Source of the DNA: Elusimicrobia bacterium GWD2_63_28
Lineage (GTDB): Bacteria > Elusimicrobiota > Elusimicrobia > Elusimicrobiales > UBA9959
Length of the DNA stretch: 64,000 bases
NCBI GenBank assembly: GCA_001799895.1
Contig: MGUI01000004.1
Coordinates: 20,961-84,960, forward strand
Direction of reading: 5' to 3'
The notes beneath the pieces were generated by a model. That model was not told where the DNA came from and searched no databases. It was given only the letters and a program-made list of their open reading frames with translations. How positions within the stretch are numbered: position 1 is the first letter of the stretch; each line of letters starts with the position of its first letter. The position numbers were made by a program, and so were the translations under genes. This document shows positions 1 to 40,246 of this stretch, piece after piece.

Positions 1-1901
1 ATCGCAGATTGGGGATGTTTCCCAACTCCACCTCGATATTTAACCGGATGGGTATTCCCGCCCGTAATTAATATCCGTTCATATACATCGTCAGCTCTAT
101 GCTTGAGCATATTTCGATACATATCTGGACGTTCAGAAGATGTAAGAACATTTTTTGAGGAATTGGGAACCTTCGCGCGTATCCTATTGATACACTTGGC
201 AACCACAGACGCAAGTTTTGAGTCGAATGTGTTCTGAGTGCCTAGCCACCGCACAAAAGCCTGATCAACTGTGCTCATTGTTGTTTTTGCTAATGGGTCG
301 ATTGAATTGAGATGCGGCAACGTTGTTTTTAGGTTCGACAACCACCCCGACTGTTTGGACAGAGGGATATTCGCGAGTCCTTTGTGCTGTGCGAGCAAAA
401 GTTTTAGTTGTTGCAGCGCTGTCCCTAAAGTATCTATTTCAGATGAACTATAACTAAGGGACTCCAGTTGACGCCGGATATCACTTAATTCGGACTTTTC
501 ATAATCCCCATTGGTGAGTGCCTTCACAATTACATTCAGCATCTGGCATTTTATCTCAAAGACAACAGGATAGATCCCAGAGTCTTCACAAACGACGCCT
601 CGCAATCTTCCGCTCTCCTTTCTCATATCAAGAAGAAGGATTCTAGAGAGTTGCAGTGCGGACTGGAAATCTTTTAACTCGGAGATTAGCCAAACCTTTT
701 CTTCCAGATCGATAGCCTTTAAAATTGCGGATACACCTGGGATGTCAGCATTTGCCGGAAGTATCCGCCACGCCCCTAGAATAGCTTCGCGCGCCTTGGC
801 ATAGTCATTCTCTGCCCAATAGCCAAGCCCGTTTGTAAGCGCGGCGATAATGCTAAACCAATATACGACAGGATTCCCTTTTTCCGGAAGTCTCCGAAGA
901 TAGACATCAAGAAGTGCCTCATAATACTCGTGCGCGTGTCGGTACTGTCTGTCACGGAACTGTTCATTAGCATTTTCCCACAAAAGAAGCGCGGACTGCG
1001 TGGCGAAGTTATCTTCAGACTCAAGGGCTGCCTTTTTAAGCCATGAAGCGGCATCAGCGTGTTTCCCCATATTCTGACAACGTCTAGATTTACACCAGTA
1101 CGAGTATATTTCATCGGAGGATCTTGTAACCCCAGGGGCATTGTAATTACCTTTGAATTCGAAGACCCTTGGATGAGCAATTTTGAATGAGATATTATTA
1201 GACTTCAGCGCACTACCTCTTGTGAATGGGGCACCCCACCATAACCTTGTAACCACTGAACGGAATCCGCCGCTTAACTTGATTTTGTTTCGCATTGCCA
1301 ACATGCCTGCATATTTTTCTGTTAGCAAAAATGTTTCCGACTGTTTCTTAATAGCGGCATGGAGTTTAGTATCATGAAACACTGGAAACATGACGCAGCC
1401 ATTTTTGGCTAAGAATATCCCCATGTGCAACGCTTGACATTTATTTTTACGCACCCACAAATCGCCTGAGAAGTGTCCACACGCCAGGGCTTCCGTTACA
1501 CGGGATTGTCTCTCCTTGCGATCATCCCATCTGAGACGATCTTTAAATTCAACCGAGCAAGAACCAGGAGTTAGTTTCTCCCACTCTTCTTCGGTAATAT
1601 ATCCCCCTTTGTAATGTGTATACACCCTGCATGGTAGTTGAATAACCACCTTTAGGGGGATTGTGGTGTTTCTGGGTTCGATATAATTCCCGCGCCCACG
1701 ACATGTGAGACACAGTTTTTCCCCACCCGTAAATATTTCACAATGCGGCAGACCTGGCTTGGCATGGCAGGCCGGACAATCTGCGTGAACGATTGGATAG
1801 CCATAGTTAGGACATTGGATGCCATCGGGAAGTTTTTTCGCCCCCTTACAGAACTCACACACTACTCGTTCAAATACAAGGCGCCCGTTTTCATACCGCA
1901 T
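1..1901 (-). CDS. Multi-CxxC Zn-finger / helical TPR-like protein, 3'-partial (C-terminus beyond window)
   Basis: Absent from the ORF track because it has no stop in the window. The minus-strand frame is open for 633 codons from ATG 1901..1899 down to base 3 (checked codon by codon). GAGGA lies 9 nt upstream of the ATG, which is 17 nt after the stop of the upstream gene. N-terminal motifs CEFCKG, CPACH, CLTCRGRG; the remainder is helical and repeat-like. Track ORF 776..1180 is an out-of-frame shadow. Confidence 0.65.
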   Translation of the reverse strand, partial: MRYENGRLVFERVVCEFCKGAKKLPDGIQCPNYGYPIVHADCPACHAKPGLPHCEIFTGGEKLCLTCRGRGNYIEPRNTTIPLKVVIQLPCRVYTHYKGGYITEEEWEKLTPGSCSVEFKDRLRWDDRKERQSRVTEALACGHFSGDLWVRKNKCQALHMGIFLAKNGCVMFPVFHDTKLHAAIKKQSETFLLTEKYAGMLAMRNKIKLSGGFRSVVTRLWWGAPFTRGSALKSNNISFKIAHPRVFEFKGNYNAPGVTRSSDEIYSYWCKSRRCQNMGKHADAASWLKKAALESEDNFATQSALLLWENANEQFRDRQYRHAHEYYEALLDVYLRRLPEKGNPVVYWFSIIAALTNGLGYWAENDYAKAREAILGAWRILPANADIPGVSAILKAIDLEEKVWLISELKDFQSALQLSRILLLDMRKESGRLRGVVCEDSGIYPVVFEIKCQMLNVIVKALTNGDYEKSELSDIRRQLESLSYSSSEIDTLGTALQQLKLLLAQHKGLANIPLSKQSGWLSNLKTTLPHLNSIDPLAKTTMSTVDQAFVRWLGTQNTFDSKLASVVAKCINRIRAKVPNSSKNVLTSSERPDMYRNMLKHRADDVYERILITGGNTHPVKYRGGVGKHPQSA

Positions 1902-1918
1902 ATTGTCATGTCCTCGTG

Positions 1919-2536
1919 TCAACGGAAAGGTTGAGAAGATCGCTCGACATCATCATCAACATACACCATCCCTGCAGAGCGCCCGGGAACGCGGTATGGT
2001 TTGCCGGGATTATACCGCGGACAATCTTTTGGCCCGTAGCAATGAGTCTCAAAACGGTATTTCTTTCTGTCCGGGTTCCAGTGATCAACGATGATTTCCG
2101 TGACCATGTTCAGACCCCAAGGACATGCAGCACAATTCCTTGCCCAAGTATCTCTATCAAGCCTTCGATGCCCATTAGCACGATAAACCTCAAGGGCAGG
2201 GGCGATGCCACCATCCGGTCCAGGAGGAGCATCGTCTGGAGAAGGCCCCCGCTTATGCACCTCTAAGCCACTAATCTTATAGAATTCCCCCCATTCTGTA
2301 TTGGGGTCAGGAACTGCTTCCCCCTCGCCTGAGACCACATCCCCAATTCTGAACCTGTGTTTTTCATGGGCCTTGGGCCCAATTGCTATTTTAAAATCCC
2401 GGGCGGCATCTCCCACTTTACCAGACATCACCAAGGAGTATCCCTGGTACTGATGCGTAGGAATCTGGTCAAAGGACCGAATAAGCCGTATTCTGGCCTT
2501 GACCGAGAGGATGGTGCCTTCAAATGGGACTTTCAT
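1919..2536 (-). CDS. Hypothetical protein (beta-rich N-terminus, Cys-rich C-terminus)
   Basis: Track ORF 1919..2590 starts at a TTG overlapping the upstream gene; ATG 2536 (MKVPFEG...) is more plausible. No family recognised. C-terminal Cys residues (NCAACPWG, THCYGPKDCP). Operon position between the dynamin gene and the Zn-finger/TPR gene. Confidence 0.5.
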   Translation of the reverse strand: MKVPFEGTILSVKARIRLIRSFDQIPTHQYQGYSLVMSGKVGDAARDFKIAIGPKAHEKHRFRIGDVVSGEGEAVPDPNTEWGEFYKISGLEVHKRGPSPDDAPPGPDGGIAPALEVYRANGHRRLDRDTWARNCAACPWGLNMVTEIIVDHWNPDRKKYRFETHCYGPKDCPRYNPGKPYRVPGRSAGMVYVDDDVERSSQPFR

Positions 2537-2576
2537 TGTTATCTCACAGTATGATCTCAACCGTCGGATCTTACCG

Positions 2577-4292
2577 TTACTTATATTCAAGCAATTCCTT
2601 ACGAAGTTGACTTAATTGCTTCTTGTGCTCGGACATTCTGTTCAATTCTGACTGTTGCTGATTTACGATTACTTCACATTCAACAATCTGCGGGGCACAA
2701 TTTTTCACAAATCGTTCGTCATCAGATAAGATGTCATACACAGGCCGGAAGATGTCCTTAATTTTATTGGTGATCTCGTTACGGACCTCCTCGGTCTTCT
2801 TTTGATCAAGTATTTTCTTACAAACATCATATAAATCCCCAGCCAATCCCAACCCCCCGGCTGCTGTAGATGCACCAGAAGAAATAGCCTTGGCCAGATT
2901 TGTCGCCCCCCAAGGAGCAAACTTAATAGGCGTTTCGGATACCTTTGAGAGCATATTCCTACCAGAAAACACCAGCCCTTTCAATTTGTTGATCGGCATT
3001 TTTTCAATCACAGAAGCAGCAGTGGCACTTTTATTTATCAGAGATCTTGGCAGGCCATCAAGATACTCATTTGTGGATGACAATTGAAGAGTTACTTTTT
3101 CAGACAATTGTCGAACCACGATCTTAGCACCGTCCAAGGCGCGCCCGAAACACAACTCAATTTTCGTTTTAAGCTTATAGCCGAACTCACCTGCACTTGA
3201 TAATCCGACTTCGGACTCCAGAAAATCCCGCATTTCATTCAGATTGAGATTACGGACACTGCTAATTAAACCGGTTTCCAGATTGTTGAGTTCTTCGAAG
3301 ATGCGCTTTCGTGATGAGGCCATATCTTCTTTTGCAATTTCTATGTCACTGTTAATATTCTTTGTTCCAGCGAGCAGTTCTTTTTCCTTGATATCGCTTT
3401 GCGCTAGCTCTGTTGCCGCCAAGTCCATTTTTCGAACAACAAGCTCGCGGACAACATCTTCTCCAGTCTTTTTTGCCAGCGATTCCGATGAGGTTTCCTT
3501 CAATACTTTCTGCACCTGGGATTTAAGAATGTCCAGTCTAGAGCGTGCGTCATAAACCTCCTCATTCTTAAACCAGAAGCTATCCAACCCCTTGCCTCCT
3601 GGATTGGCAGAAACAGAAACAATAGTAATCTTTTTTAACTCGGACTCGCTTAAGCCTACAAATTCCTTTAGCTTGTTACGCAGGTTATCACTTTTAATCT
3701 TAACCTGCCGCTCATAGTCGTCAGCATCTTTAAGATTTGCGACAGCATCCATCTTATTGATAACGAAAATCGTAGTTGTCAGTTTGTTTAAATCCCGCAG
3801 CAGCCATTTCACGGTGTCCCGCTGACTTTCCTTCAAAGGATTCATCGCATCAAGGACATAAAATATGAGGTGCGCTTCTGAAAGATACTTTTTCGTTATA
3901 TCGGAGTATTTTATTGTGGAGGCATCCCCCTCCACCGCTTTTGTCTTATCGCCATACAGTCCTGGGGTGTCAATAATCTCACATTTTTCCCCTAGCTCCT
4001 CAAGATGATAAATTCCCAAAGAGTCTGTAGACTCATCGCTATCAATTTTCATCGTTTCAGGAATTTTTTTAAGCCACCCTGCAATGATGCTGGTTTTTCC
4101 GTCTGAAAACGCTCCCACGAATGCGATACGGAGAACCTCACTTTTAATGTTTTCCACGGCGCGTTCTATTTTGCCAAGATCCTCCTTAACATCCAAGCCC
4201 AGCTCCTCAATTTTAGAGATGACCTCTTTTAGCCTTAGCAATTTTGCGATTACAGAGTCTTTTCCCGACTTGAATGCCTCGAATTCTTTCAT
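2577..4292 (-). CDS. Bacterial dynamin-like GTPase (LeoA-like)
   Basis: G1 GAFSDGKTS, G3 DTPGL, G4 NKMD, a long helical stalk, and a Gly/Ala-rich hydrophobic segment near the C-terminus. Start moved to ATG 4292 (GGAGGA RBS) from track start 4355. Confidence 0.8.
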   Translation of the reverse strand: MKEFEAFKSGKDSVIAKLLRLKEVISKIEELGLDVKEDLGKIERAVENIKSEVLRIAFVGAFSDGKTSIIAGWLKKIPETMKIDSDESTDSLGIYHLEELGEKCEIIDTPGLYGDKTKAVEGDASTIKYSDITKKYLSEAHLIFYVLDAMNPLKESQRDTVKWLLRDLNKLTTTIFVINKMDAVANLKDADDYERQVKIKSDNLRNKLKEFVGLSESELKKITIVSVSANPGGKGLDSFWFKNEEVYDARSRLDILKSQVQKVLKETSSESLAKKTGEDVVRELVVRKMDLAATELAQSDIKEKELLAGTKNINSDIEIAKEDMASSRKRIFEELNNLETGLISSVRNLNLNEMRDFLESEVGLSSAGEFGYKLKTKIELCFGRALDGAKIVVRQLSEKVTLQLSSTNEYLDGLPRSLINKSATAASVIEKMPINKLKGLVFSGRNMLSKVSETPIKFAPWGATNLAKAISSGASTAAGGLGLAGDLYDVCKKILDQKKTEEVRNEITNKIKDIFRPVYDILSDDERFVKNCAPQIVECEVIVNQQQSELNRMSEHKKQLSQLRKELLEYK

Positions 4293-4335
4293 AAGTCCTC
4301 CAAAGATTCTAGAAAACCCATCGCCCCGCCACCAT

Positions 4336-5970
4336 CTATAGGGGTTGTGCGTCAATTTCAGTTATATGAGAAGACAGGGTAACGATTACTCGCTCCAGAA
4401 CAGTTTCCGCATTTTTCATTCCATCTAGTCCCGCTTGCAAGGAAGAGATAGTGTGGCACAGAACTTTATCACTCACCTCCTCCTCAATTTTCTCGACATT
4501 CACACCATTTTGCTTTCTAATTGCCAAGATATTTTTTGCAATAGCCTCTCGTGCCTGCTTTTTTAATATTTTTAAATTTTCGTCAGTGCTCACAAATATA
4601 GCCTCATAAAGGTATTTTAGAAGATGTCCGGCTGCCACAATAATTGGGAATGTCCCCCCGCTAGCGATTGTTGCGCCCAATCCCGCGGAAGCGAGCATAG
4701 TCTTTGTGAAACTGCCCCATTTATCGGACACGGTTAGTCCGGCTATCCCAACATGATTTTGTCCAGCTATGTCCAGGCTCTGGGTATTGCAGATGGCCTC
4801 CACCCTCTCGATCTCTGCCTGCAATTTTAGGATTAACGCATCCCTTTCCTCTACGAATTTATTCACCAATCTACTCGTTATTTCTGCTTGTTCTGACTCC
4901 AAAGATTTTATCTCGCGGTTGAGCGCAAGACGGAGTTTTCTTTGAATACTCTCCTCGTCTTCCCCTGTCCTATCCACAATTGTATCAGAGAGTTCTCTAA
5001 GTCTATTGTGATGCTGCTCAATGATACTACCTGTTTCCTGATTTAAAGCTATTTTGAATTTGCTGAACCTGTCTTTAAGCCTCTTCTCGCATTCATTAAC
5101 AGCTTTTCTCGCTGCAGCGCATTTACTCCGATAGTTCTCTAGATCCATTTGCAGCACATTAACATTTTCAGTTAGCAACCTTGACACTTTTCTCCTATTA
5201 CTCAAAAGGATATCTCTCTCAAAAGTGCTCAGTTTATGCGAAACCACTTCGGACAAGAGATCAATACGACTAAAATCCCGCAGCAACTCCTTCTGTGGAA
5301 ATATTTCAAGAAATCCCTTTTGATCTTTTTCAAGATACTGTTTGGTTAAATCACATGTCGAACGATTGTTTTCATTAATAGCAAGAGCACTAAACGCCAT
5401 AAGGCCTTGAACAAGTTTCGCGTCGAGAAGCACTTCTGGCCCTATAATCGCAGAAAGAACCTCTATTGTCTGATGTAGTATTTCATCCGCGTCTTTATGT
5501 GTTGCCTGCAAACTGGTGCGATCTTCAGGAAACTCATATAAATCTGCTTTGCCACGAATGTTACAGACAGGAAGAACCGATGCTTCTCTCCTAAGGTACC
5601 GTTTAATCTTTTCAGCAGTTGCCGCCTCAGGTTTTTTGTTTGCCCCATTCACATAAAAGACCAAATGAGATTTAGCAATTCCTTTCTGAATAATAGCCTC
5701 ATACCTGACCTCATCCCCTTCTATCCCAGGCAAATCAAGCAACTGAAAGGTTTTCCCTAAATGCGTAAATTCATAGGACTTCATGTCCTTGGTAAAATCC
5801 GCCTCACCTGTGCCAATAGTTCTCCCATCAATTCGATCCACAGACAATCTGGAACATTCAAGTCTCTTTTGCTCCTGCAACAAATCAGACAGCAAAACCG
5901 AGCAAAGGCGATTAAGGTCTTTTCGCCATGCCCCGGTATGTGCCTTTAGGGTCAACCCGTTAAAAATCAT
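4336..5970 (-). CDS. Dynamin-like protein lacking a P-loop (G3/G4 plus stalk part of a split GTPase; LeoB-like?)
   Basis: No Walker A. DLPGIEG (DxxG, G3-like) and RGKAD (G4-like), then ~400 aa helical stalk and a hydrophobic Gly-rich segment (ASAGLGATIASGGTFPIIVAAG). The start ATG overlaps the stop of 5967..6584 (ATGA). Confidence 0.6.
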   Translation of the reverse strand: MIFNGLTLKAHTGAWRKDLNRLCSVLLSDLLQEQKRLECSRLSVDRIDGRTIGTGEADFTKDMKSYEFTHLGKTFQLLDLPGIEGDEVRYEAIIQKGIAKSHLVFYVNGANKKPEAATAEKIKRYLRREASVLPVCNIRGKADLYEFPEDRTSLQATHKDADEILHQTIEVLSAIIGPEVLLDAKLVQGLMAFSALAINENNRSTCDLTKQYLEKDQKGFLEIFPQKELLRDFSRIDLLSEVVSHKLSTFERDILLSNRRKVSRLLTENVNVLQMDLENYRSKCAAARKAVNECEKRLKDRFSKFKIALNQETGSIIEQHHNRLRELSDTIVDRTGEDEESIQRKLRLALNREIKSLESEQAEITSRLVNKFVEERDALILKLQAEIERVEAICNTQSLDIAGQNHVGIAGLTVSDKWGSFTKTMLASAGLGATIASGGTFPIIVAAGHLLKYLYEAIFVSTDENLKILKKQAREAIAKNILAIRKQNGVNVEKIEEEVSDKVLCHTISSLQAGLDGMKNAETVLERVIVTLSSHITEIDAQPL

Positions 5971-6584
5971 TTAACGATTCCAAGCCATATGGCCAGACGC
6001 GGATTAGCAATCAACAACAGAACAGCAACAAGCAATCCAATCACTGCGCCCATGGAATACCGAAGTAACTGGCGCCCTACACCATACTCCCTCACACAAT
6101 AATCCCGTATTGTTGTTATGTTTTCAGATAGTGTTTCCAGCTCAGTCGCATAGTTTTTGTATGCTTTTCCTAAGTGCTCCATCAGTGACTCGGCATTGTC
6201 TGAGTATTTCCTTTCCAGAATCTCAAGATTGGCCTTATTTTCCGCAATAAGTCTTTGCCGTGCCTTCTCCTGAAAGATAATCCGTAAACTTTCAATAATA
6301 GTGCTCTTTCCTGCATTTGTTTCCCCGAAGAATGCGATCGTGAATTTTTCCCATTCAGAATTATTCTCAAGGAAAGAGATTTCATCATCAAATCTGTTTT
6401 TTATCGCGTGAAGTGTTTTTTTTACCCCCTCAACATGCTGCCTCGCTTCAGGGTCAGCAACTTTCACGTCTGAGATGTCCTTCAAGCCCATGTGCACAGC
6501 CTTCTGGACATCTTTGTATAGACTTGAGTAAGTCTTTACATGTTTATGGATTGAATCGTTAGAGGGCTCATGTTCGTTTTTCAT
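5967..6584 (-). CDS. P-loop NTPase fragment with coiled coil and C-terminal TM helix (G1 part of a split dynamin-like GTPase; LeoC-like?)
   Basis: Walker A FFGETNAGKST, a coiled-coil stretch, and a C-terminal hydrophobic helix AVIGLLVAVLLLIANPRLAIWLGIV. Translationally coupled to 4336..5970. Confidence 0.6.
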   Translation of the reverse strand: MKNEHEPSNDSIHKHVKTYSSLYKDVQKAVHMGLKDISDVKVADPEARQHVEGVKKTLHAIKNRFDDEISFLENNSEWEKFTIAFFGETNAGKSTIIESLRIIFQEKARQRLIAENKANLEILERKYSDNAESLMEHLGKAYKNYATELETLSENITTIRDYCVREYGVGRQLLRYSMGAVIGLLVAVLLLIANPRLAIWLGIVK

Positions 6585-6639
6585 AGATTCAGCTTTTCTG
6601 TGTCGTTCCGAAGTAGTTCATATGAGAGTGACGCTAGGT

Positions 6640-7557
6640 TTATTTTGAATACATCTTATTCAGTTCCCGTACCCAATCTGCAAAACTCTCCTGCTCCAAC
6701 AGGTACTCTTTCCACTTAAGCGGTTTAAATGTCGTTACCCCGTCCCATCTCCCATTATGCGTTGAGTGCAGCATCCAAATAAACTCAATTGTATCATTGT
6801 CTAGCTGAACAGTAGCCCTAATTGGCTTTATTGTTTTATATATCCCGGAAGTGTCTCCCTCAGGTCTGTTTTTATCCACATCGACATCCCGCTCCGTGCT
6901 GCTAAATCTTACAGTGACTTTCCCGTCTAGCTGAGCTGCTATTGCAAGATACCCTGCAGACTCCACACCATTACAGACACATAAGGTCGGTCTTAAAATT
7001 CTAGCAGCGGCGAACCAAGTGCGCCAGCCGTTGGCATAATCGTTCTCCTGCCTTTTTGTTTTAGTGGGCCGAGCGGCGCTGCTCTGCATACAACGCTGAC
7101 AGATGTTCATATAAACTGCGTTGGCAAACACAAAGTCCTTTACAGCTTGATCTTCTGCTGAGCCCGACAGGATTGGGTTAATCGCCTCGAAAAACTTCGG
7201 GTAAGGCCGCGGGATATATTCATTTGTGATAAATTCAGCTAATCCAACACAACCGTAGTCATAATAGTCCCAGTTGTCGTTCGACTTAAAATACGATTCG
7301 GCTATAAAGCATGCACGATTTCTTAATCCCCCAGGATAGTTCCGCCCAATCCAGGGGAGATAACTAAACTTCCCAGCTTTCGGATTATCTCTCGGGGAAG
7401 CACTATCGGGCAACAACAGTGGCTCTTCGCCAGTTCCTTGGCGAACGAATTTTTGCAGCTCATTATAATTCAGATGCGTTTCCACATAGGCTTTAACCTT
7501 TTCATTCTTATATCCAGGAGAATCCAGCAAGCTTTTGTTAATTGAGATTCTTGTCAT
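6640..7557 (-). CDS. Hypothetical protein
   Basis: Track ORF 6640..7584 starts at GTG inside the upstream gene. ATG 7557 lies 1 nt after the upstream stop (TAAtATG). No confident family; a UDG-like-fold resemblance (ACFIAESYF, NAVYMNICQRC) is only an impression. Confidence 0.45.
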   Translation of the reverse strand: MTRISINKSLLDSPGYKNEKVKAYVETHLNYNELQKFVRQGTGEEPLLLPDSASPRDNPKAGKFSYLPWIGRNYPGGLRNRACFIAESYFKSNDNWDYYDYGCVGLAEFITNEYIPRPYPKFFEAINPILSGSAEDQAVKDFVFANAVYMNICQRCMQSSAARPTKTKRQENDYANGWRTWFAAARILRPTLCVCNGVESAGYLAIAAQLDGKVTVRFSSTERDVDVDKNRPEGDTSGIYKTIKPIRATVQLDNDTIEFIWMLHSTHNGRWDGVTTFKPLKWKEYLLEQESFADWVRELNKMYSK

Positions 7558-7558
7558 A

Positions 7559-8509
7559 TTAGTTGAGGCAGAATTTCTTTGCACCTTTCATAATTTCGTC
7601 TGAAATAACCGGCCGAAAAAAATGGGATTCCTGTGCCCTAATGGCGCTGTAGACTATCCAATCCTGCATGGCCTTGGTGGGGTTGCCAAGGTTCTTATGG
7701 CATTTATAGCGGCTTAAATAGGCCTCGGCGAATAGCGGGGAGACCTTGATCGCACTGTCTAGGTCGGACAGCTCGCTCTCATAGTCTTCCAAAGCGGCAT
7801 AAATCTCGCTTCGGGAGAGGAATGACCGGGCATGCTTGGGGTCGAGGCGTATCGCCTCGGTCAGATCGCTTAACGCCGATTTAACAGAGCAATGCATACA
7901 ACCGAAGTCCAACACGCTCTCCGCTCTGTAAGCATAATACTTCGCGCAGGGCTTGAGCCCGATTGCGGTGTCCAGGTCGCCCAACGCCTTGTCATGCTCG
8001 CCGAGGGCATCATAAACGGTAGCCCTCTCAAAAAGTGCCTCGGCATTGTCGGGCTCCAGCTCGATGACATCATTAAGGATCTTCAGGGCATTATCCCAGT
8101 TCTCAAGACGGATGTGCGCCATCGCCTGGTTATAATAGGGACTAACGTCTTTTGAATCGAGCTTGCGCGCAATCCCGTACGCTTCTATGGCTTCATGGTA
8201 TTGCTCCATTTCAAAGTAGATCCAGCCGAGACCATGATGCGCTTCCATATATTTGGGATCTATCTGTATTGCCAACTTTACATCCTCAAGAGCAAGCTTC
8301 AAGAGCGCCAAGGCAGCATCATCCAGAGGCGTATCTTCCCCCCTGCGAGCCATCGCTTTGCGGCAATAGGCTTCCGACCTGGAACAATAGGCCCGGGCCG
8401 CGGTAGAATCGTTCGCTATAGCTTCAGACAAACACTTAATGGCCGGCTCAAATACCTCCTCCATGAGGTACGCTTCCCCTTTCTGTATAAGCATAGCCGT
8501 ATTAGTCAT
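7559..8509 (-). CDS. TPR repeat protein
   Basis: Repeated 34-aa A..Y..RG.AY...G.Y..A..D...AI.L.P pattern throughout; GGAGG RBS before ATG 8509. Confidence 0.8.
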   Translation of the reverse strand: MTNTAMLIQKGEAYLMEEVFEPAIKCLSEAIANDSTAARAYCSRSEAYCRKAMARRGEDTPLDDAALALLKLALEDVKLAIQIDPKYMEAHHGLGWIYFEMEQYHEAIEAYGIARKLDSKDVSPYYNQAMAHIRLENWDNALKILNDVIELEPDNAEALFERATVYDALGEHDKALGDLDTAIGLKPCAKYYAYRAESVLDFGCMHCSVKSALSDLTEAIRLDPKHARSFLSRSEIYAALEDYESELSDLDSAIKVSPLFAEAYLSRYKCHKNLGNPTKAMQDWIVYSAIRAQESHFFRPVISDEIMKGAKKFCLN

Positions 8510-8537
8510 AGTTGCCTCCGCTCATAAGCGGACCATG

Positions 8538-9827
8538 CTACTCCTCGCTTACGATATCAGGGTCCAGCTTTAAGGCTTTGGCCGCATCAGCCTTAGCCAA
8601 GGGATATCTCCCCATATCCTGATATATCGCCCCGCGGTTGTAGTAGGCAAAAGCGCATTTGGGGTCCACCTTTATGGCCGAGGAATAGTCCGCCAGTGCA
8701 GCTGTATAATTCTCCATATCCGAGTAGACCTGAGCCCTGTTGCAGTAAAGTTCGGTCGAGGGTGGCTCCCACCTCATTGCCTGGGTAAAGTCCTGCAGGG
8801 CAGCTTCCAGGGCCCCTAGGGCGACATTAGCCATCCCACGGCCACAATACCCCAAACCACGCTCTGGATCGAGCTGGATGGCCTTATTGAAGTCGTTTAA
8901 GGCCTGCTTCGGCTTGCCGGCATGCAAATAAGCCAAACCGCGGTTATGGAGGTACAGGGGATTATTAGGGCTAAGACGGATGGCGGCATTAAAAAAGTGA
9001 ATGGCCTCCTTCAGCCCATCCTTGATCCCGCACATCAAAAGGGCGAAGTTGTTGTAGACGCCGCTGTCGGCAGGACTAAGCCGCATAGCCTTTGCGAAGT
9101 CGGCGTGAGCCTTCAGTAGGTCACCCTTCTCCTGGTAGAGCATTGCCCGGTTATTGTAAGCAAAACCGCTTTTGGGCTCTAACCTGATTATCTTGTCATA
9201 CTGCTCTATAGCCTTATCCGGTAGTTGCATAGCCTGATACGTCTGGCCGAGGCTCCCGAAGATATCGGTAGACTTCGGGTCAAGTTTTAAAGCCCGCTGA
9301 AAGTCCTTAAGCGCCCTATCGACATCTCCCATTTCAAAGAACACCCAGCCGCGGTTAAGATATGCGGCTGAATTTTTAGAGTCCAGCGTTATAGACCGAT
9401 TCAGGTCTTTCAAGGCGGATTTCAGATCCCCGCGCTCAACATAAGCCTGGCCGCGGTTGCTGTAGGTGCAGGAAGACTTGGGCTCCAGTTTAAGGGCCCG
9501 CTCGTAATCAGCGAACGCCTTGGAGAATTTACCCATTTCGGCATAGGCATCACCGCGATTGCTATGGAGGATGGCATTGTCCGGCTGAAGGCGAAGCCCA
9601 TGGTTGAAATCTGCGAGAGCTTTTTCCGGCATGCCGGCATCCAGGTAGGCGCAGCCACGGTCGCTATAAAGGCTGTAATCCCCCTTATCCGTCTTGATTG
9701 CTTTGGTGTAGCTGCGGATGGCCTTCTTAAAGGCCTTCTGGCTCATATGCCGCTCGGCGCGATAGCGGCAGAATACTCCGAGGACATAGTTCTTAAGACC
9801 GAAAAGCACTTTTTGAGTTTTGATCAT
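8538..9827 (-). CDS. TPR repeat protein (about 11 repeats)
   Basis: Highly regular TPR units (e.g. YSNRGQAYVERGDLKSALKDLNRSITLDSKNSAAYLNRG). Confidence 0.85.
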   Translation of the reverse strand: MIKTQKVLFGLKNYVLGVFCRYRAERHMSQKAFKKAIRSYTKAIKTDKGDYSLYSDRGCAYLDAGMPEKALADFNHGLRLQPDNAILHSNRGDAYAEMGKFSKAFADYERALKLEPKSSCTYSNRGQAYVERGDLKSALKDLNRSITLDSKNSAAYLNRGWVFFEMGDVDRALKDFQRALKLDPKSTDIFGSLGQTYQAMQLPDKAIEQYDKIIRLEPKSGFAYNNRAMLYQEKGDLLKAHADFAKAMRLSPADSGVYNNFALLMCGIKDGLKEAIHFFNAAIRLSPNNPLYLHNRGLAYLHAGKPKQALNDFNKAIQLDPERGLGYCGRGMANVALGALEAALQDFTQAMRWEPPSTELYCNRAQVYSDMENYTAALADYSSAIKVDPKCAFAYYNRGAIYQDMGRYPLAKADAAKALKLDPDIVSEE

Positions 9828-9852
9828 AACCCCACCATTCTGGAGATGAATC

Positions 9853-10335
9853 TTAATCCTTGGAATACTCCCAGCTTAAACCATAATCGGAGAACGGGAG
9901 CGGTTCAAAGTCCTTTACTTTAATATGGCTGTTGGCCACCCCAGTCACTTTACAACGCACCAATTCGTTGTCTTCGGTGGTAACAATCACGTGGTCGCCT
10001 TTCCTGGGCTCGCGCCAAGGATTTTTCAGTGTTATGCGCCACATCCCCTCGAAACCATTGACCCCAGACTTCATAGTCCAGAATCCTTCTAAAATATTGC
10101 TCTTGGGGAATTTGTGAAGAGTGGCGTCGCCGCTGACATTTTCTCCTTTCATTTTACACACATAATGCCCTGCGGCAGTCTCTGCCCCCTGCCAGACAAC
10201 GTGTAACCTGTTGAAATATGACACGACGATCTTTGCGCCTTCAATTCGAACATCGCAGGTATAGGCGTATTTATGATCTTCTGCGGGATAATCGACTGCC
10301 GGGCAGTTTTTATATATCAGCATTTCTGATTTCAT
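9853..10335 (-). CDS. Hypothetical protein
   Basis: 160-aa ORF with an AAGGAG RBS; operon position; no family recognised. Confidence 0.5.
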   Translation of the reverse strand: MKSEMLIYKNCPAVDYPAEDHKYAYTCDVRIEGAKIVVSYFNRLHVVWQGAETAAGHYVCKMKGENVSGDATLHKFPKSNILEGFWTMKSGVNGFEGMWRITLKNPWREPRKGDHVIVTTEDNELVRCKVTGVANSHIKVKDFEPLPFSDYGLSWEYSKD

Positions 10336-10355
10336 AAATTTCTCCTTAAACCCGC

Positions 10356-10706
10356 CTAATTCGGCAATCCACCATGGAGAATTTTCACCGGCACTTCGGG
10401 ACAGGGCGGTTCATACTTTGGGAACGGGTCGCGCCGGTCCAGTTTGTTCAGAGCTTTGGGACTGCGGGCATATTCAGCAGCCTCTTCCTCGGATAATCCC
10501 CGGTTGAACACAATCGCGGCTTTCACATCCCGCCTAAGCCGGCGCCAGGTTGTCCTGCCCTCAACTAAGGACTCCGCCTCATCCAAGGTGACGAACTCCA
10601 ACAACACCTCGCTTACGCCCATCTTCGTGAGCCGCTCGATTATGGAGTCCTTTCTGGCATTGGTTTGCCGGCGGTCATTCTTGTATTTATCGAGCCAGTT
10701 CGCCAT
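10356..10706 (-). CDS. Hypothetical protein (first gene of the operator-controlled operon)
   Basis: 116-aa ORF with a GGGGGAG RBS; 33 nt downstream of the -10-like TATCCT of operator copy 1. Confidence 0.5.
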   Translation of the reverse strand: MANWLDKYKNDRRQTNARKDSIIERLTKMGVSEVLLEFVTLDEAESLVEGRTTWRRLRRDVKAAIVFNRGLSEEEAAEYARSPKALNKLDRRDPFPKYEPPCPEVPVKILHGGLPN

Positions 10707-10739
10707 ATCTCCCCCTGAATGCTAGATCCTTCTGGCTAT

Positions 10740-10774
10740 AGGATACCGCCCCATCGCGACAGCGTTATGTCGCG
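10740..10774 (-). promoter_or_regulatory. Island operator/promoter copy 1: CGCGACA-N6-TGTCGCG + 9 nt + TATCCT
   Basis: Perfect 7+7 inverted repeat at 10755..10774. On the minus strand it is followed after 9 nt by TATCCT (10745..10740). Upstream of the 10706 -> <1 operon. Confidence 0.6.
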
Positions 10775-10827
10775 TTGCGAAAGCACACATGCAATTTAGC
10801 TGCGCCGAAGATCGTCGCAGAAATCCA

Positions 10828-13143: not shown

Positions 13144-13158
13144 GATGCTTATAGCCCG

Positions 13159-14976
13159 CTATACCAGCCGAGTTAATTCCCACGGCCCTCGCTTTTTAAA
13201 ATGCATTGCAAGCTTACGGCGAAGACGCCTTGTCAGAGCTAGATATGTTTTGTCTTTGACTCTGCCATTAAGCGACTGCAGGGAATTGAGGATTTCAAAG
13301 CGCGCCCAATGTCGCCAATGTTTCTCCATTCCGCTTTTAGCTTTTGAAGGAGAATGTATATAAAACGTCTTCGAGAACAACGCCAGGACATTCCGGCAGT
13401 CCAGTTCCGTCCAGGGAGCATCATCGGCAATGCGGGATTCAAGGTAGCGCAATTTGGAAGCCAGATTTCGCACTTTGCCGGCCCAGTGGAAGTGGTTTTT
13501 ATCCATATCCCCACTCCCGCCTCCGGGAACTCGTTTGCCGGGGGCACCACCTGTGCCGGGTAGCTCTTGCTCCCCATAAATAGAGCCCAACCTGGCCAAC
13601 CATTGCTCCGGATCAATTTCGCCTTCATCAGGAGTAATCGGCACACTGTCATCTTCAGGTATATCTATTGCGACCAGTTGCTGCCTGTTCCCCTTTTTTA
13701 AAGTTATATCCAGAAAACAGTCCTGCTTAATACGAAATTTACGCAGACTGGCAGGTGTTAGCTCTGCATTCTCGTATCTGATTCTGCAATTACCAAATCC
13801 GTACTTCTTCTTCCATGTAATTTGCAGGCCCCTGGCTGTAAGCCGGGCAGACTCTATGGCAGAAAGAGTCCCGGACATTTCATCATCTTTACGCTGCTGG
13901 GAAGTCAGCATTTCCTTAATATCGGCAAAAGAACGCCAACGTGGGCCATCCAATGGGGCCAAAATGCCTGGTAAATCTACATGCTGTTCTTTAACTATGA
14001 CAGCCGCTTCCACGTTATACTTCCCGCGGCCACTCATTGCCTTTGATGTGCAATTCGGCGAACCGGCTAGCAGCAATGTGGTTATTTCGCCACGGCTCAA
14101 ACCTTTAATCGCAACTAGTTTGGCATGCAGTTGACCACCACTAAGTGGCACGCCGTGGATATTGAATTGTATTGATCTTATCTTGCAGAATTTTTCCAGA
14201 TCTTCCACAAAAGAACGAGGTGCATAAAGCTCTGCAATGGCGTCATTATAGGGGATGTATAGGTGTAGCTTATCTAAATGCCGCGTAGCTGGGTGTGCTA
14301 AGAGCTCACGAAGGAAGGAATGACTTTCACTGTACGAGTCGCTGCCGTTTTGGTTCAAATCTTCAGCGTCTTCCTGTATATCGTTGAAATACTTATCATA
14401 AAACGGCGAGACTACATGTATCTCATCCGCCAGCATGTGGTTAAGTTTTTCAAAAAGCCGGTCGTCTATTGGTCGCTGGAAACTGGTGACAACGGGAGAG
14501 GATTCTGGAGTTGCGGAGAGGAAATGCTGCGGGGCTTTGATTTCTTTTAAAAGCGGCATTAATGCGAATGGGATGCCCTCGCTACTGATAACTGAAAAGA
14601 ATTCCCTGTTGTGCCGCCAACCGCTAGCGGTTAGATTACCTGAGCCTAATATCGTAAGGAACGTTTTGCGGAACGCGACTATGTAAACTTTGGGGTGAAA
14701 GAGCCGGGCTGGAGTCTCCCATTGTTTAAGCGCATAGCCCTTGTTATAGCTATGCCCAGTATAAACTCTTTTATCGCAGACGACCAAGGTGCGGAACCGA
14801 GCCCCTACCAAACCTATTTCAGTGGGGTCTTGGAAAAGAGGGATTACTTCTTTTTCGAAGAAATGGCAGTCGAAGGTATAAGTAAGAAATACCGCAGCCA
14901 GCGGGTTGCCGTGTATAGTTATGGCTTCGCTGATAACATCTTCAATGCTCTGCTCCCCTACAAAGTTGATCACCAT
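13159..14976 (-). CDS. Phospholipase-D-family (two HKD motifs) nuclease with ~200-aa C-terminal extension
   Basis: HPKVYIV...GSGNLTASG and HAKLVAI...GSPNCTSKA. The start overlaps the stop of 14970..16121 by 7 nt. Confidence 0.8.
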   Translation of the reverse strand: MVINFVGEQSIEDVISEAITIHGNPLAAVFLTYTFDCHFFEKEVIPLFQDPTEIGLVGARFRTLVVCDKRVYTGHSYNKGYALKQWETPARLFHPKVYIVAFRKTFLTILGSGNLTASGWRHNREFFSVISSEGIPFALMPLLKEIKAPQHFLSATPESSPVVTSFQRPIDDRLFEKLNHMLADEIHVVSPFYDKYFNDIQEDAEDLNQNGSDSYSESHSFLRELLAHPATRHLDKLHLYIPYNDAIAELYAPRSFVEDLEKFCKIRSIQFNIHGVPLSGGQLHAKLVAIKGLSRGEITTLLLAGSPNCTSKAMSGRGKYNVEAAVIVKEQHVDLPGILAPLDGPRWRSFADIKEMLTSQQRKDDEMSGTLSAIESARLTARGLQITWKKKYGFGNCRIRYENAELTPASLRKFRIKQDCFLDITLKKGNRQQLVAIDIPEDDSVPITPDEGEIDPEQWLARLGSIYGEQELPGTGGAPGKRVPGGGSGDMDKNHFHWAGKVRNLASKLRYLESRIADDAPWTELDCRNVLALFSKTFYIHSPSKAKSGMEKHWRHWARFEILNSLQSLNGRVKDKTYLALTRRLRRKLAMHFKKRGPWELTRLV

Positions 14977-18509: not shown

Positions 18510-18527
18510 GCAAGAAATATACTCTTG

Positions 18528-19484: not shown

Positions 19485-19522
19485 ATAGAACGCAGCCCAG
19501 CGTATGCATTAGAATTAAGATG

Positions 19523-21310: not shown

Positions 21311-21312
21311 AA

Positions 21313-39238: not shown

Positions 39239-40246
39239 ATGGCTAAGAAAAAAACTGCCACAAAAAAGGACGATTTTAAGGTCATAAGAATAGGAGCGAA
39301 CCCTGACAAGCGCAGTGATGGGGATCGCCAACATTATCGCATAGGCAAGATCCTAAACAGGCTGGAAGAAGGTCCGGTGCAACTCCGCGCTTTAGCTGCG
39401 GAGTACGGTGTGGTCAAGCGGTCAATAGAACGCGACATAGAACGCATTGAACTTTATGGGTATAACATTGTTACCCCTAAAAAAGGCTGGCGACAATTCG
39501 CCCCAGGAGTAAGCCTAAAAAAAGGGCGCCTAGACGTTCAGCAGCAATCCGCATTAATCATCCTTAACGAGATATCCAAGAACCTTGGCAGTTCCATGCA
39601 GCAATCCTTCGGGACTCTCTTCAAGCACCTCATGGAGGCCGATCCGGCCGATTCTGTTATTGTGCCGGTAATGCCCAAGATCATCAACACAAAAGAGATT
39701 CCCTACATAGACCAGATAGAGGCGGCGATACAGGACCACCGCAAGCTCAATATCCAGTATAACTACGAGGCAAAGGGAGAAATTGTCCCCCGCACAATCT
39801 GCCCGGTCAAGATACTCATCTCCGAAGGCAATGCCTATGTTCTGACGATATCGGAACGGTGGCACGGCAGCCCTATCACATACCGGATAGACCGAATAAA
39901 GACCTTGGAGGACACCCCGGATAAATTCACTCCCCCGAATAACCTGAGCGAGTTGCTGGAAAAGGCGCGCAGCATCTGGGGCATAATGCCGGAGAATGAG
40001 CGCACAACCCTTATACGCCTGAAAGTAACCGACTGGGCCAGGGAATATTTCAGATACCAGGAAATAGTCGGCGGGCAGAAAATAATACCCCAGGAAGACG
40101 GTTCCTTCATCTACGAGGCCAAGATTGGCCGACTGATGGAAATAGTCCCCCATATTCTGCGGTGGATGCCCTATGTGAAGGTTCTGGAGCCTAAAGAGCT
40201 GAAAGAGACCGTCAAATACCGCATAAACGAGTACCTGAAGAAATAG
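39239..40246 (+). CDS. WYL-domain transcriptional regulator (BrxR/CapW-like architecture)
   Basis: N-terminal HTH LRALAAEYGVVKRSIERDIERI, central WYL-like domain ICPVKILISEGNAYVLTISERWHGSPITYRIDRI, and a C-terminal extension. Confidence 0.75.
   Translation: MAKKKTATKKDDFKVIRIGANPDKRSDGDRQHYRIGKILNRLEEGPVQLRALAAEYGVVKRSIERDIERIELYGYNIVTPKKGWRQFAPGVSLKKGRLDVQQQSALIILNEISKNLGSSMQQSFGTLFKHLMEADPADSVIVPVMPKIINTKEIPYIDQIEAAIQDHRKLNIQYNYEAKGEIVPRTICPVKILISEGNAYVLTISERWHGSPITYRIDRIKTLEDTPDKFTPPNNLSELLEKARSIWGIMPENERTTLIRLKVTDWAREYFRYQEIVGGQKIIPQEDGSFIYEAKIGRLMEIVPHILRWMPYVKVLEPKELKETVKYRINEYLKK

What the first reader, a model, noticed from the sequence alone, without database searches (positions are those of the whole stretch)
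1..10774. Ten-gene operator-headed operon embedding Eleos/LeoABC-like dynamins among TPR and Zn-finger proteins
All genes from 10706 down to the left edge are co-directional. Going from 10706 towards base 1, the inter-gene gaps are 20, 25, 28, 1, 55, -4 (overlap), 43, 40 and 17 nt. The operon follows operator copy 1.

The core is three genes forming a dynamin-like set at 5967..6584, 4336..5970 and 2577..4292. This resembles the LeoA/LeoBC anti-phage system called Eleos, reported in the 2022 expansion of defence systems.

Here that set is flanked by seven further genes:
- upstream: two unknowns (116 and 160 aa), two TPR proteins (316 and 429 aa) and a 305-aa unknown
- downstream: a 205-aa Cys-rich unknown and a Zn-finger/TPR-like protein of at least 633 aa

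As far as I know, TPR and Zn-finger partners are not part of the described two-gene Eleos. They could be sensor or adaptor components of an expanded, differently regulated variant.
Basis: partly seen in the sequence, partly recalled or inferred. Interest (0 to 1): 0.7.

Follow-up and report, generated by a model that had tools for sequence, protein, structure and literature searches.

The report
Eleos dynamin genes in composite operon
A standard three-gene "Eleos" dynamin-like anti-phage module sits inside a ten-gene, apparently single-promoter unit of a mobile defence island, but comparison with other genomes gives little sign that the seven extra genes are general partners of Eleos.

Summary
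Ten co-directional minus-strand ORFs lie at the stated coordinates with the stated gaps. The core is a canonical split leoC-leoB-leoA Eleos set. Its LeoA matches the ETEC LeoA crystal structure chain 4AUR at E 2.7e-124.

I extended the contig leftwards. The last gene is 770 aa and is followed 50 nt later by a strong intrinsic terminator. At the head is one of six copies of a palindrome, CGCGACA-N6-TGTCGCG, placed 9 nt before a TAnnnT box. Its half-sites match those bound by DriD, and the island encodes an HTH-WYL-WCX regulator. A single regulated transcription unit is therefore plausible.

The "expanded Eleos" reading is only weakly supported:
- None of 72 other Leo loci carries any of the seven accessory genes.
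- The 205-aa Cys-rich gene belongs to a widespread independent family (OB fold plus Cys cluster). Its nearest relatives have no Leo nearby.
- The 770-aa protein is an ORFan.
- The 305-aa gene's distant homologue sits beside a PDC-M27 system instead of Leo.
- GC3 shows a compositional mosaic.

Only two short contigs from close relatives keep parts of the operator-to-LeoC order.

Best reading: a WYL-controlled composite cargo operon carrying ordinary Eleos. Interest is modest.

The parts
10755..10774 (-). Palindromic operator CGCGACA-TAACGC-TGTCGCG heading the unit. Its half-sites are the same as the DriD box.
   Evidence: six copies in the window against 0.02 expected. It is conserved in L096, and homology between L096 and the window starts exactly here.
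10740..10745 (-). Putative -10 hexamer TATCCT, 9 nt after the operator. No -35-like hexamer is present.
   Evidence: the same geometry (operator, 9 nt, TAnnnT) is seen at all six operator copies. This is inference, not transcript data.
10356..10706 (-). g10, 116 aa, unknown function. First gene of the unit, with a good Shine-Dalgarno sequence (GGGGGAG).
   Evidence: No hit in Pfam, PADLOC, NCBIfam, PHROGs or PDB. 84% identical in L096.
9853..10335 (-). g9, 160 aa, unknown function.
   Evidence: No family hits. 93% identical in L096. Its N-terminal ~100 aa has weak tblastn hits in two plasmids with no Leo nearby.
8538..9827 (-). TPR protein, 429 aa, with about 9 or more TPR units.
   Evidence: Pfam TPR_1 E 3e-85. 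96% identical in L096. GC3 0.64.
7559..8509 (-). TPR protein, 316 aa.
   Evidence: Pfam TPR_1 E 7e-24. 77% identical in L096 and 60-66% (frameshifted) in L082. GC3 0.61.
6640..7557 (-). g6, 305 aa, unknown function. Its start lies 1 nt after the TPR316 stop.
   Evidence: Only 4 homologues among 5.8 billion proteins. L082 has an 81% homologue between TPR316 and LeoC. L085 has a 36% homologue followed by PDC-M27A. The AF2 model is unusable (pLDDT 45). GC3 0.46.
5967..6584 (-). LeoC: the P-loop part (GETNAGKS) of the split second dynamin, with a C-terminal hydrophobic anchor.
   Evidence: PADLOC LeoC 214 bits. Sequence. Same design as ETEC LeoC (206 aa, P-loop plus membrane anchor; PMC4159319).
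4336..5970 (-). LeoB: the rest of the split dynamin (DLPG switch 2 and helical domains). It overlaps leoC by 4 nt.
   Evidence: PADLOC LeoB 481 bits and Pfam Dynamin_N.
2577..4292 (-). LeoA dynamin-like GTPase with motifs G1 GAFSDGKT, G3 DTPG and G4 NKMD.
   Evidence: PADLOC LeoA 715 bits. NCBIfam NF041922 528.6 bits, above its cutoff. Pfam DLP_helical 8.9e-55. PDB 4AUR E 2.7e-124 over the full length.
1919..2536 (-). Cys205: a 205-aa protein with an OB fold and a C-terminal Cys cluster. It is an independent, widespread cassette.
   Evidence: More than 513 homologues at 57-85% identity, some fused to an XRE-type HTH. AF2 model pLDDT 87.8. Foldseek finds OB folds of AspRS, SSB and PriB (probability 0.97-1.0, E at or above 0.016). 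Its nearest relatives lack Leo. DNA homology is confined to the ORF itself.
1..1901 (-). g1_770: the first 633 codons of a 770-aa ORFan with N-terminal CxxC motifs. Its end and the operon terminator lie left of the window (L074 10636-12948 and 12998-13018).
   Evidence: No homologue in the word-based search. HMMER against 1.84 billion representatives finds only about 9 small proteins matching residues 1 to roughly 90-180. No TPR was detected.
39239..40246 (+). HTH_11-WYL-WCX regulator, the candidate binder of the six operators.
   Evidence: Pfam. The best PDB matches are WYL-domain chains, including 8tp8 ('DeoR-family transcriptional regulator'), at E about 2e-9; I take these to be DriD entries from memory, not from the tool output. 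An operator copy at 38098-38117 heads the operon that contains this gene.

Best explanation
The region is a composite cargo operon of a roughly 50-kb, low-GC defence island integrated next to tRNA-Met.

A canonical split Eleos module sits in the middle of ten tightly packed genes. It consists of leoC-leoB, together one membrane-anchored dynamin-like GTPase, plus leoA, a second and probably soluble one. The ten genes share one promoter region and one intrinsic terminator.

The promoter has no -35 element. Instead, a palindrome (CGCGACA-N6-TGTCGCG) lies 9 nt upstream of a TAnnnT -10 box. The same design is used at five other promoters of the island. One of these heads the operon that encodes an HTH-WYL-WCX regulator related to DriD.

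Inferred mechanism: the WYL regulator binds these operators and couples expression of the whole regulon, including the Leo operon, to a nucleic-acid signal such as ssDNA produced during phage attack or DNA damage. It most likely acts as an activator replacing the -35 contact, as DriD and PafBC do. Less likely, it is a BrxR/CapW-type repressor. Once made, LeoC/LeoB and LeoA act as in described Eleos: GTP-dependent dynamin-like proteins at the membrane that block phage propagation. Their exact mode of action is unknown for any Eleos.

The seven other genes are not general Eleos components:
- Cys205 is a free-standing, widely distributed cassette with an OB fold and a Cys cluster.
- The 770-aa gene is an ORFan occupying a variable slot.
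- The five head genes (g10, g9, two TPR genes, g6) travel with the operator and Leo only in the closest relatives. Their composition partly differs from that of Leo.

Shown: gene identities, operator copies, the terminator, and the absence or presence of synteny. Inferred: co-transcription, regulator-operator pairing, the direction of regulation, and any functional link between the head genes and Leo.
For: Leo identity: and the ETEC design.

Unit boundaries:
- Operator and -10 at the head.
- L074 is identical to the window over 12,536 nt and extends it.
- The best terminator in 20 kb lies 50 nt after the 770-aa gene: an 8-bp stem with 6 GC pairs and a U-run, z-score -3.6.
- Gaps are at most 55 nt, with two coupled junctions.

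Regulator:
- HTH_11-WYL-WCX architecture.
- The closest solved WYL-domain relatives, at E about 2e-9, are entries I take to be DriD.
- The DriD site is CGAC-N7-GTCG (PMC10853764).
- WYL regulators are known to co-localise with defence islands (PMC9122601).
- WYL genes flank Leo in 9 of 72 other loci.

Against obligate partnership:
- 0 of 72 Leo loci carry any accessory homologue.
- The two-gene Eleos alone defends (Millman et al.).
- Cys205 contexts lack Leo.
- g1_770 is an ORFan.
- A g6 homologue sits next to PDC-M27A.
- GC3 is 0.61-0.68 for g10, TPR429 and TPR316, against 0.41-0.48 for g6, Leo, Cys205 and g1_770.

Island context.
Against: - No transcript data exist. No terminator separates the upstream SNF2 gene from the operator, so read-through from upstream is possible, and internal promoters are not excluded.
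- The only two close relatives found keep the head genes in order with the operator (L096) and with LeoC (L082). In L096, homology begins exactly at the operator. This fits a module that moves as a unit and could be functional.
- The 72 comparison loci share at most 44% LeoA identity. They say little about a young, lineage-specific accessory set.
- The operator spacing is N8 between CGAC and GTCG, not the N6-7 reported for DriD.
- No binding has been tested, and the sign of regulation is a guess.
Confidence: 0.6

Rival explanations
1. Expanded Eleos variant. The head genes (TPR429, TPR316 and g6, perhaps also g10 and g9) would be lineage-specific sensor or adaptor subunits. They would recruit or gate the LeoCBA dynamins, so the operon would be one multi-component system.
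For: - Single promoter and single terminator, with g6 starting 1 nt after TPR316 and 55 nt before leoC.
- L082 keeps the order TPR316-g6-LeoC.
- L096 keeps the order operator-g10-g9-TPR429-TPR316, with its homology breakpoint at the operator.
- The accessory genes diverge faster than LeoC: LeoC 94%, g6 81%, TPR316 60-77%. This is what one might expect of a sensor.
- g6 has the same GC3 as Leo.
Against: - 0 of 72 other Leo loci have any of these genes.
- The g6 homologue in L085 precedes PDC-M27A, not Leo.
- TPR316 is frameshifted in L082 and lies 127 nt from g6 there.
- GC3 differs between the TPR genes and Leo.
- Eleos works without such partners.
- The evidence rests on two short contigs from close relatives.
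Confidence: 0.2
2. Several independent systems merely lie side by side. For example, a TPR/g6 system, Eleos, and a Cys205/g1_770 pair would each have its own internal promoter, and the shared operator would be irrelevant to most of them.
For: - Defence islands pack unrelated systems on one strand. Here SNF2/PLD, a kinase and Ssp-like genes all lie on the minus strand.
- The operon is a compositional mosaic.
- In L078 the gene in the slot after Cys205 has its own strong sigma-70-like promoter.
- The promoter scan shows consensus-like sites inside coding regions.
Against: - Intergenic gaps of 1-55 nt leave no room for separate promoter regions.
- The number of promoter-like hits does not exceed that in shuffled sequence (22 found against 20.3 expected).
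- No terminator-like hairpin with a U-run lies between the genes on the coding strand.
- The only strong terminator lies after the tenth gene.
Confidence: 0.15
3. The dynamin genes serve a housekeeping or virulence-type membrane function, such as vesicle release as first proposed for ETEC LeoA, rather than phage defence. The neighbouring TPR proteins would then belong to an envelope process.
For: LeoABC were first linked to vesicle-associated secretion (PMC4159319). TPR proteins give their best, generic matches to PilW, NlpI and MamA models.
Against: - The locus lies in an integrase/tRNA-bounded island packed with defence genes.
- The TPR hits are generic repeat matches far below the models' cutoffs, apart from one repeat-only match.
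- Homologous operons defend against phage, and 60% of them co-localise with defence systems.
Confidence: 0.05

Closest known systems
Eleos / LeoABC of ETEC H10407 (split form leoC-leoB-leoA; LeoA structure 4AUR)
   Same: - Same gene order and sizes (205/544/571 aa here against 206/572/577 aa in ETEC).
- The P-loop is in LeoC and the DxxG motif in LeoB.
- LeoC has a C-terminal hydrophobic anchor.
- LeoA aligns over its full length to 4AUR at E 2.7e-124.
- Strong PADLOC and NCBIfam hits.
   Different: - It sits inside a ten-gene unit with five genes ahead and two behind.
- It is headed by a WYL-type operator.
- The nearest LeoA among species-representative genomes is only 44% identical.
- There is no DNA match in E. 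coli genomes or plasmids.
Two-gene dynamin-like system of Bacillus vietnamensis (Millman et al. 2022), the experimentally validated Eleos
   Same: Paired dynamin-like GTPases in a defence island, with P-loops present in both.
   Different: In that system the first gene is fused (LeoBC) and it works from its native promoter without accessory genes. Here the first gene is split and embedded among other genes. Activity has not been tested here.
DriD (Caulobacter) and PafBC (mycobacteria): WYL-domain transcription activators
   Same: - HTH-WYL-WCX architecture.
- The closest solved WYL-domain relatives are entries I take to be DriD.
- Palindromic CGACA/TGTCG half-sites, as in the DriD box.
- An operator ahead of the regulator's own operon.
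- The binding site abuts the -10 box in place of a -35. The comparison of this geometry with PafBC promoters rests on my recollection of the RecA-NDp motif and was not verified in the papers read.
   Different: - The spacer is one base longer than in DriD boxes.
- The regulator is encoded on a mobile defence island and controls cargo and defence operons rather than chromosomal DNA-repair genes.
- Ligand and sign of regulation are unknown.
BrxR/CapW family of WYL regulators of defence islands
   Same: A WYL regulator associated with phage-defence genes and binding inverted repeats (PMC9122601). WYL genes flank Leo in 9 of 72 other loci.
   Different: Those regulators are repressors, usually encoded right next to the system they control. 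Here one regulator appears to serve six dispersed promoters up to 28 kb away.

Membership tests
Eleos (LeoA + LeoBC, or split LeoC + LeoB) | LeoA-family dynamin-like GTPase with a helical (DLP) domain | tested here: met
   PADLOC LeoA 715 bits. NCBIfam NF041922 528.6 bits against a cutoff of 325. Pfam DLP_helical 8.9e-55. PDB 4AUR E 2.7e-124.
Eleos (LeoA + LeoBC, or split LeoC + LeoB) | A second dynamin-like protein encoded immediately upstream, either fused or split into LeoC plus LeoB | tested here: met
   LeoC 214 bits and LeoB 481 bits. The genes overlap by 4 nt and lie 43 nt before leoA. The split form is described.
Eleos (LeoA + LeoBC, or split LeoC + LeoB) | Intact phosphate-binding loops in both GTPases (required for defence in Millman et al.) | tested here: met
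   GETNAGKS in LeoC and GAFSDGKT in LeoA, read directly from the translations. The requirement is stated.
Eleos (LeoA + LeoBC, or split LeoC + LeoB) | Location among other defence systems | tested here: met
   SNF2/PLD (PDC-M27/Zac-like), a PD-T4-6-like kinase, GmrSD_N, and an Ssp-like cluster (my naming from the Pfam domain set PAPS_reduct, DUF4007 and Aminotran_5; no Ssp model was run) lie in the same island next to an integrase and tRNA-Met.
Eleos (LeoA + LeoBC, or split LeoC + LeoB) | Protection against phage | not testable with these tools
   Requires cloning and plaque assays.
   0 of 72 Leo loci (with 10 kb on each side) have a homologue of any of the seven genes. There was one generic TPR hit.
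   L096 keeps operator-g10-g9-TPR429-TPR316. L082 keeps TPR316 (frameshifted)-g6-LeoC. Both contigs are short and closely related. No relative was found that covers LeoA-Cys205-g1_770.
   Cys205 relatives at 85%, 78% and 64% identity lack Leo. The g6 relative at 36% identity precedes PDC-M27A. g1_770 has no full-length relatives.
DriD-type WYL activator regulon | Regulator with wHTH, WYL and WCX domains | tested here: met
   Pfam HTH_11, WYL and WCX. The closest PDB chains are WYL-domain proteins I take to be DriD, at E about 2e-9.
DriD-type WYL activator regulon | Palindromic CGAC-N(6-7)-GTCG box in target promoters, including the regulator's own | tested here: inconclusive
   The half-sites are identical, but the spacing is N8 (CGACA-N6-TGTCG). 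There are six copies, one of them ahead of the regulator's own operon.
DriD-type WYL activator regulon | ssDNA-dependent DNA binding and transcription activation | not testable with these tools
   Needs EMSA or fluorescence polarisation with and without ssDNA, plus reporter assays.

The most novel reading that the evidence does not exclude
The five head genes (g10, g9, TPR429, TPR316, g6) form a previously undescribed sensor/adaptor module. It would be co-inherited with a split Eleos and placed under a DriD-like, ssDNA-responsive WYL switch. That would make this an inducible, multi-component Eleos variant in which TPR scaffolds couple infection sensing to dynamin assembly.
Probability: 0.15. 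Interest if true: 0.65.

Novelty: new member of a known kind. Interest (0 to 1): 0.35.

Why it matters
How Eleos works is unknown. A confirmed set of partner proteins, or a defined inducing signal, would give a handle on how bacterial dynamins sense infection.

What this locus offers with reasonable support is narrower:
- An example of Eleos wired into an island-wide regulon with DriD-like operators.
- A hint that the operator marks a recombination boundary where cargo operons are swapped.

These make the regulation of Eleos testable, through WYL binding and induction by DNA damage or phage. The claim of new Eleos subunits currently rests on two short contigs from close relatives.

Tried and rejected
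- **DNA similarity:** megablast of 1-11000 against E. coli genomes and plasmids gave no match.
- **Metagenome scan with LeoC:** it returned only the contig already known.
- **Viral-contig scans with g9 and g10:** nothing found.
- **Plasmid tblastn:** nothing for g10. For g9, two weak N-terminal hits in unannotated DNA, uninformative about function.
- **Family and structure-sequence searches:** Pfam, PADLOC, NCBIfam, PHROGs and PDB sequence searches gave nothing for g10, g9, g6, Cys205 and g1_770.
- **g6 structure:** AF2 from a 4-sequence alignment gave pLDDT 45, and its Foldseek hits are meaningless.
- **g6 as a UDG-superfamily protein:** I suspected this from motifs recalled from memory (FIAES..., N-I-C-Q-R-C, LCVCNG, HS). 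No tool supported it, so it remains an untested lead.
- **g1_770 Zn-finger:** relatives of its N-terminal region give only sub-threshold DnaJ_CXXCXGXG hits. It is not filed as DnaJ-like, and no TPR was detected in it.
- **L078 slot gene:** the 307-aa gene in the same slot in L078 is not homologous to g1_770.
- **Upstream terminator:** none found between the SNF2 gene and the operator.
- **Rfam:** only the tRNA was found.
- **Host identification:** cluster look-ups returned no names.


Full report
**1. Observation**

Plus-strand ORFs in the interval are short and lie inside the longer minus-strand frames.

The 121-nt space between the preceding SNF2 gene (stop at 10828) and the first ATG (10706) holds the palindrome CGCGACATAACGCTGTCGCG at 10755-10774. 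GCGACA-N6-TGTCGC occurs six times in the 64 kb against 0.02 expected. I found no copy within an ORF I take to be a real gene; two copies (at 40280 and 46503) overlap the 5' ends of mechanically called GTG ORFs.

**2. The core is ordinary, split-type Eleos**

- The three central proteins hit PADLOC LeoC (214 bits), LeoB (481 bits) and LeoA (715 bits).
- LeoA passes the NCBIfam LeoA/HP0731 model (528.6 bits against a cutoff of 325).
- LeoA has Pfam DLP_helical and Dynamin_N domains.
- LeoA aligns end to end with the ETEC LeoA crystal chain 4AUR at E 2.7e-124.
- The sequences carry G1 motifs in LeoC (GETNAGKS) and LeoA (GAFSDGKT), DxxG in LeoB, and a hydrophobic C-terminus in LeoC.

This is the design Michie et al. 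described for ETEC: LeoC of 206 aa with a P-loop and membrane anchor, LeoB supplying the rest, in the order leoC-leoB-leoA (PMC4159319). Millman et al. note that in some genomes the first gene of the two-gene system is split in this way. The three genes therefore do not depart from "two-gene Eleos".

**3. Extending the unit**

An exact-sequence look-up of the 205-aa protein found a 60-kb contig, L074. It is identical to the window over 12,536 nt and continues leftwards.

- The tenth gene is 770 aa.
- 50 nt after its stop lies the best terminator-like site in 20 kb: CGCCCTCT-CATCC-AGAGGGCG followed by TTTTAATTT. Its RNA fold z-score is -3.6.
- After it come further co-directional genes: 55, 137, 167, 181 and 737 aa, then GrpE, HSP70, VWA and others.
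- No comparable terminator lies between the upstream SNF2 gene and the operator.

Structurally, one promoter region and one terminator bracket exactly the ten genes. Read-through from upstream cannot be excluded, and no transcript data exist.

**4. Setting**

- The window is about 45% GC up to roughly 50 kb and 60-67% GC beyond.
- tRNA-Met lies at 50273-50349 and a tyrosine integrase at 49196-50206.
- The low-GC part is a defence island. It carries an unknown 383-aa gene plus PLD plus SNF2 (PDC-M27/Zac-like), a PD-T4-6-like kinase, GmrSD_N, PLD, a MORC-like ATPase and a helicase. It also carries a cluster I read as Ssp-like from its Pfam domain set (PAPS reductase, a 1114-aa ATPase, DUF4007 and a class-V aminotransferase); no Ssp model was run.
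- Exact-match contigs come from groundwater metagenomes.

**5. The operator and its likely regulator**

All six operator copies share one geometry: CGCGACA-N6-TGTCGCG, then 9 nt, then a TAnnnT hexamer (TATCCT, TAAGCT, TATACT, CATAAT, TATGCT, TAGACT). None has a -35-like hexamer at 17±1 nt.

They head these units:
- the Leo operon;
- an operon of two unknown genes plus an HTH_11-WYL-WCX gene (39239-40246);
- an AAA ATPase gene;
- a metallo-β-lactamase/RMMBL gene;
- a DUF2779-HAD pair;
- divergently from that pair, a HEAT-repeat operon.

The WYL protein's nearest solved relatives are WYL-domain chains, including 8tp8, at E about 2e-9. I take these to be DriD entries from memory; the tool output names them only as WYL-domain or DeoR-family proteins. 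DriD binds the palindrome ATACGACAGTTACTGTCGTAT, that is CGAC-N7-GTCG, and is switched on by ssDNA (PMC10853764). The half-sites here are the same, with one extra spacer base.

I infer, but did not show, that this regulator controls the six promoters. It is probably an activator substituting for the -35 contact. From memory, this geometry resembles PafBC-dependent promoters; the papers read confirmed only that the PafBC motif is non-palindromic and RNAP-dependent. A BrxR/CapW-like repressor role is the alternative (PMC9122601).

Independent support for a link between WYL regulators and Eleos comes from the other Leo loci. Two unrelated WYL families sit next to Leo in five Pseudomonas and four Bacteroidales loci out of 72.

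**6. Are the seven other genes Eleos partners?**

(a) *Other Leo loci.* A scan of species-representative genomes with LeoA gave 73 loci, the best only 44% identical. tblastn with all ten proteins found LeoB and LeoC in 65-66 of them. It found no homologue of any accessory gene, apart from one generic TPR match. Clustering all neighbours within 4 kb showed no recurrent partner. The largest neighbour family is a 72-aa DUF6140 gene in 11 Bacteroidales loci.

(b) *Cys205.*
- It has more than 513 homologues at 57-85% identity across phyla, some fused to XRE-type HTH domains.
- A confident AF2 model (pLDDT 87.8) shows an N-terminal OB fold resembling AspRS, SSB and PriB OB domains (Foldseek probability 0.97-1.0, but E at or above 0.016), plus a C-terminal Cys cluster.
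- Its closest relatives lack Leo. L078 (85%) reads operator-HAD-HisPhos-Cys205-unrelated 307 aa-then the same 137/167/181/737-aa cluster. L076 (78%) lies near RadC and a convergent PLD/SNF2 system. L080 (64%) is in an unrelated context.
- DNA homology to L078 and L076 covers only the ORF itself.

It is a self-contained cassette, not a Leo partner.

(c) *g1_770.* It has no homologue in the 5.8-billion-protein search. A full HMMER pass over 1.84 billion representatives finds only nine small proteins (169-212 aa) matching its first 90-180 residues, the CxxC region. These small proteins give sub-threshold DnaJ-type zinc-finger hits. No TPR was detected in g1_770.

(d) *g6.* It has four homologues.
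- L082 and L083 are the same contig. It reads TPR316 (60-66%, frameshifted, 127 nt away)-g6 (81%)-LeoC (94%).
- L085 (36%) is followed by a PDC-M27A gene, not Leo.
- L084 is too short to tell.

(e) *g9 and g10.* There are no family hits. A 90%-cluster variant of g9 led to L096. In L096, 92% DNA identity to the window starts exactly at the operator and runs through g10 (84%), g9 (93%), TPR429 (96%) and TPR316 (77%). The gene upstream of the operator is a different SNF2 C-terminus.

(f) *Composition.* GC3 by gene:

| Gene(s) | GC3 |
|---|---|
| g10 | 0.68 |
| TPR429 | 0.64 |
| TPR316 | 0.61 |
| g9 | 0.53 |
| g6, LeoC, LeoB, LeoA, Cys205, g1_770 | 0.41-0.48 |

This is a mosaic with a step between TPR316 and g6.

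**7. Reading**

The unit is best seen as a composite. A head module starts at the operator and, in the closest relatives, is contiguous with g6 and Leo. Next comes the canonical Eleos trio. Then come the free-standing Cys205 cassette and an ORFan in a variable slot, closed by a terminator.

The breakpoint at the operator in L096, together with the operator-HAD-HisPhos-Cys205 arrangement in L078, suggests that WYL-controlled promoters in this island family act as docking points for exchangeable cargo. This rests on two examples.

A functional tie between the TPR and g6 genes and Leo is possible but unproven (I put it at about 0.15-0.2). Such a tie is unlikely for Cys205 and cannot be assessed for g1_770.

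**8. Comparison and novelty**

The Leo genes meet every sequence-level criterion for Eleos (see the membership table). They are a new, fairly divergent member of that family. WYL regulators in defence islands are known. A DriD-box-like regulon spread over six promoters of a mobile island, one of them driving Eleos, is a noteworthy regulatory context rather than a new kind of system. I rate interest at 0.35.

Noticed in passing
window 38098-38117, 40280-40299, 42306-42325, 46467-46486, 46503-46522 (plus 10755-10774); regulator gene 39239-40246: An island-wide regulon. Six DriD-box-like palindromes each lie 9 nt before a TAnnnT box with no -35. They head operons for two unknown genes plus the HTH-WYL-WCX regulator, an AAA ATPase, a metallo-β-lactamase/RMMBL protein, DUF2779 plus HAD, and a HEAT-repeat operon. 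Six copies were found against 0.02 expected.
   Followed up: partly
L096 1039-3819 compared with window 10774 downwards: In a second sample, 92% DNA identity to the window begins exactly at the operator, and the upstream gene is a different SNF2 C-terminus. The operator therefore looks like a recombination boundary for the cargo operon.
   Followed up: partly
window 1919-2536; L078 3131-3733; L076 3802-4434: The Cys205 family is a highly conserved, widespread, unannotated family of about 205 aa (57-85% identity across phyla, no Pfam match). It has a predicted OB fold and an invariant Cys cluster, and is sometimes fused to XRE-type HTH domains. It behaves as a one-gene cassette with variable flanks.
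   Followed up: partly
L074 13113-20618 (left of the window): After the terminator comes another co-directional cluster: 55, 137, 167, 181 and 737 aa (HerA/mad8-like), then GrpE, HSP70, VWA, 253 aa and a TPR protein. The 137-737 aa genes are conserved at 55-89% in L078. This may be a separate chaperone/vWA-type conflict system or the island backbone.
   Followed up: no
window 10828-16121 and 16303-17166: An unknown 383-aa gene, PLD and SNF2 helicase resemble the PADLOC candidates PDC-M27 A/B/C and ZacB/C. A PD-T4-6-like Ser/Thr kinase gene lies just upstream.
   Followed up: partly
window 17163-29542: A cluster I read as an Ssp-type DNA phosphorothioation cluster from its Pfam domains alone: PAPS-reductase-like, a 1114-aa ATPase, DUF4007 and a divergent class-V aminotransferase (cysteine-desulfurase-like). 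No Ssp or Dnd model was run. Beside it lie GmrSD_N, PLD, a MORC-like HATPase and helicase genes.
   Followed up: no
window 49196-50349 and the GC step near 50.3 kb: A tyrosine integrase next to tRNA-Met marks the right end of a low-GC island (about 45%) in a host with 60-67% GC. The left end lies beyond the window.
   Followed up: no
window 34254-34392: At least five tandem 21-nt repeats (TTTCTAAGCAAGATGACACTA-like), iteron-like, in an intergenic stretch.
   Followed up: no
L007, L008, L009, L011, L013 (Pseudomonas); L025, L046, L054, L060 (Bacteroidales); 11 Bacteroidales loci including L030-L033: Two unrelated WYL-domain regulator families sit next to Leo operons in other genomes. A 72-aa DUF6140 gene recurs beside Leo in 11 Bacteroidales loci.
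   Followed up: partly
L082 1-474: The TPR316 homologue upstream of g6 and LeoC in the one syntenic relative is frameshifted near its 3' end and separated from g6 by 127 nt instead of 1 nt. This is either gene decay or an assembly error.
   Followed up: no
L085 637-2112: A 36%-identical homologue of g6 lies directly upstream of a PDC-M27A gene. The g6 family may be a promiscuous companion of different defence systems.
   Followed up: partly
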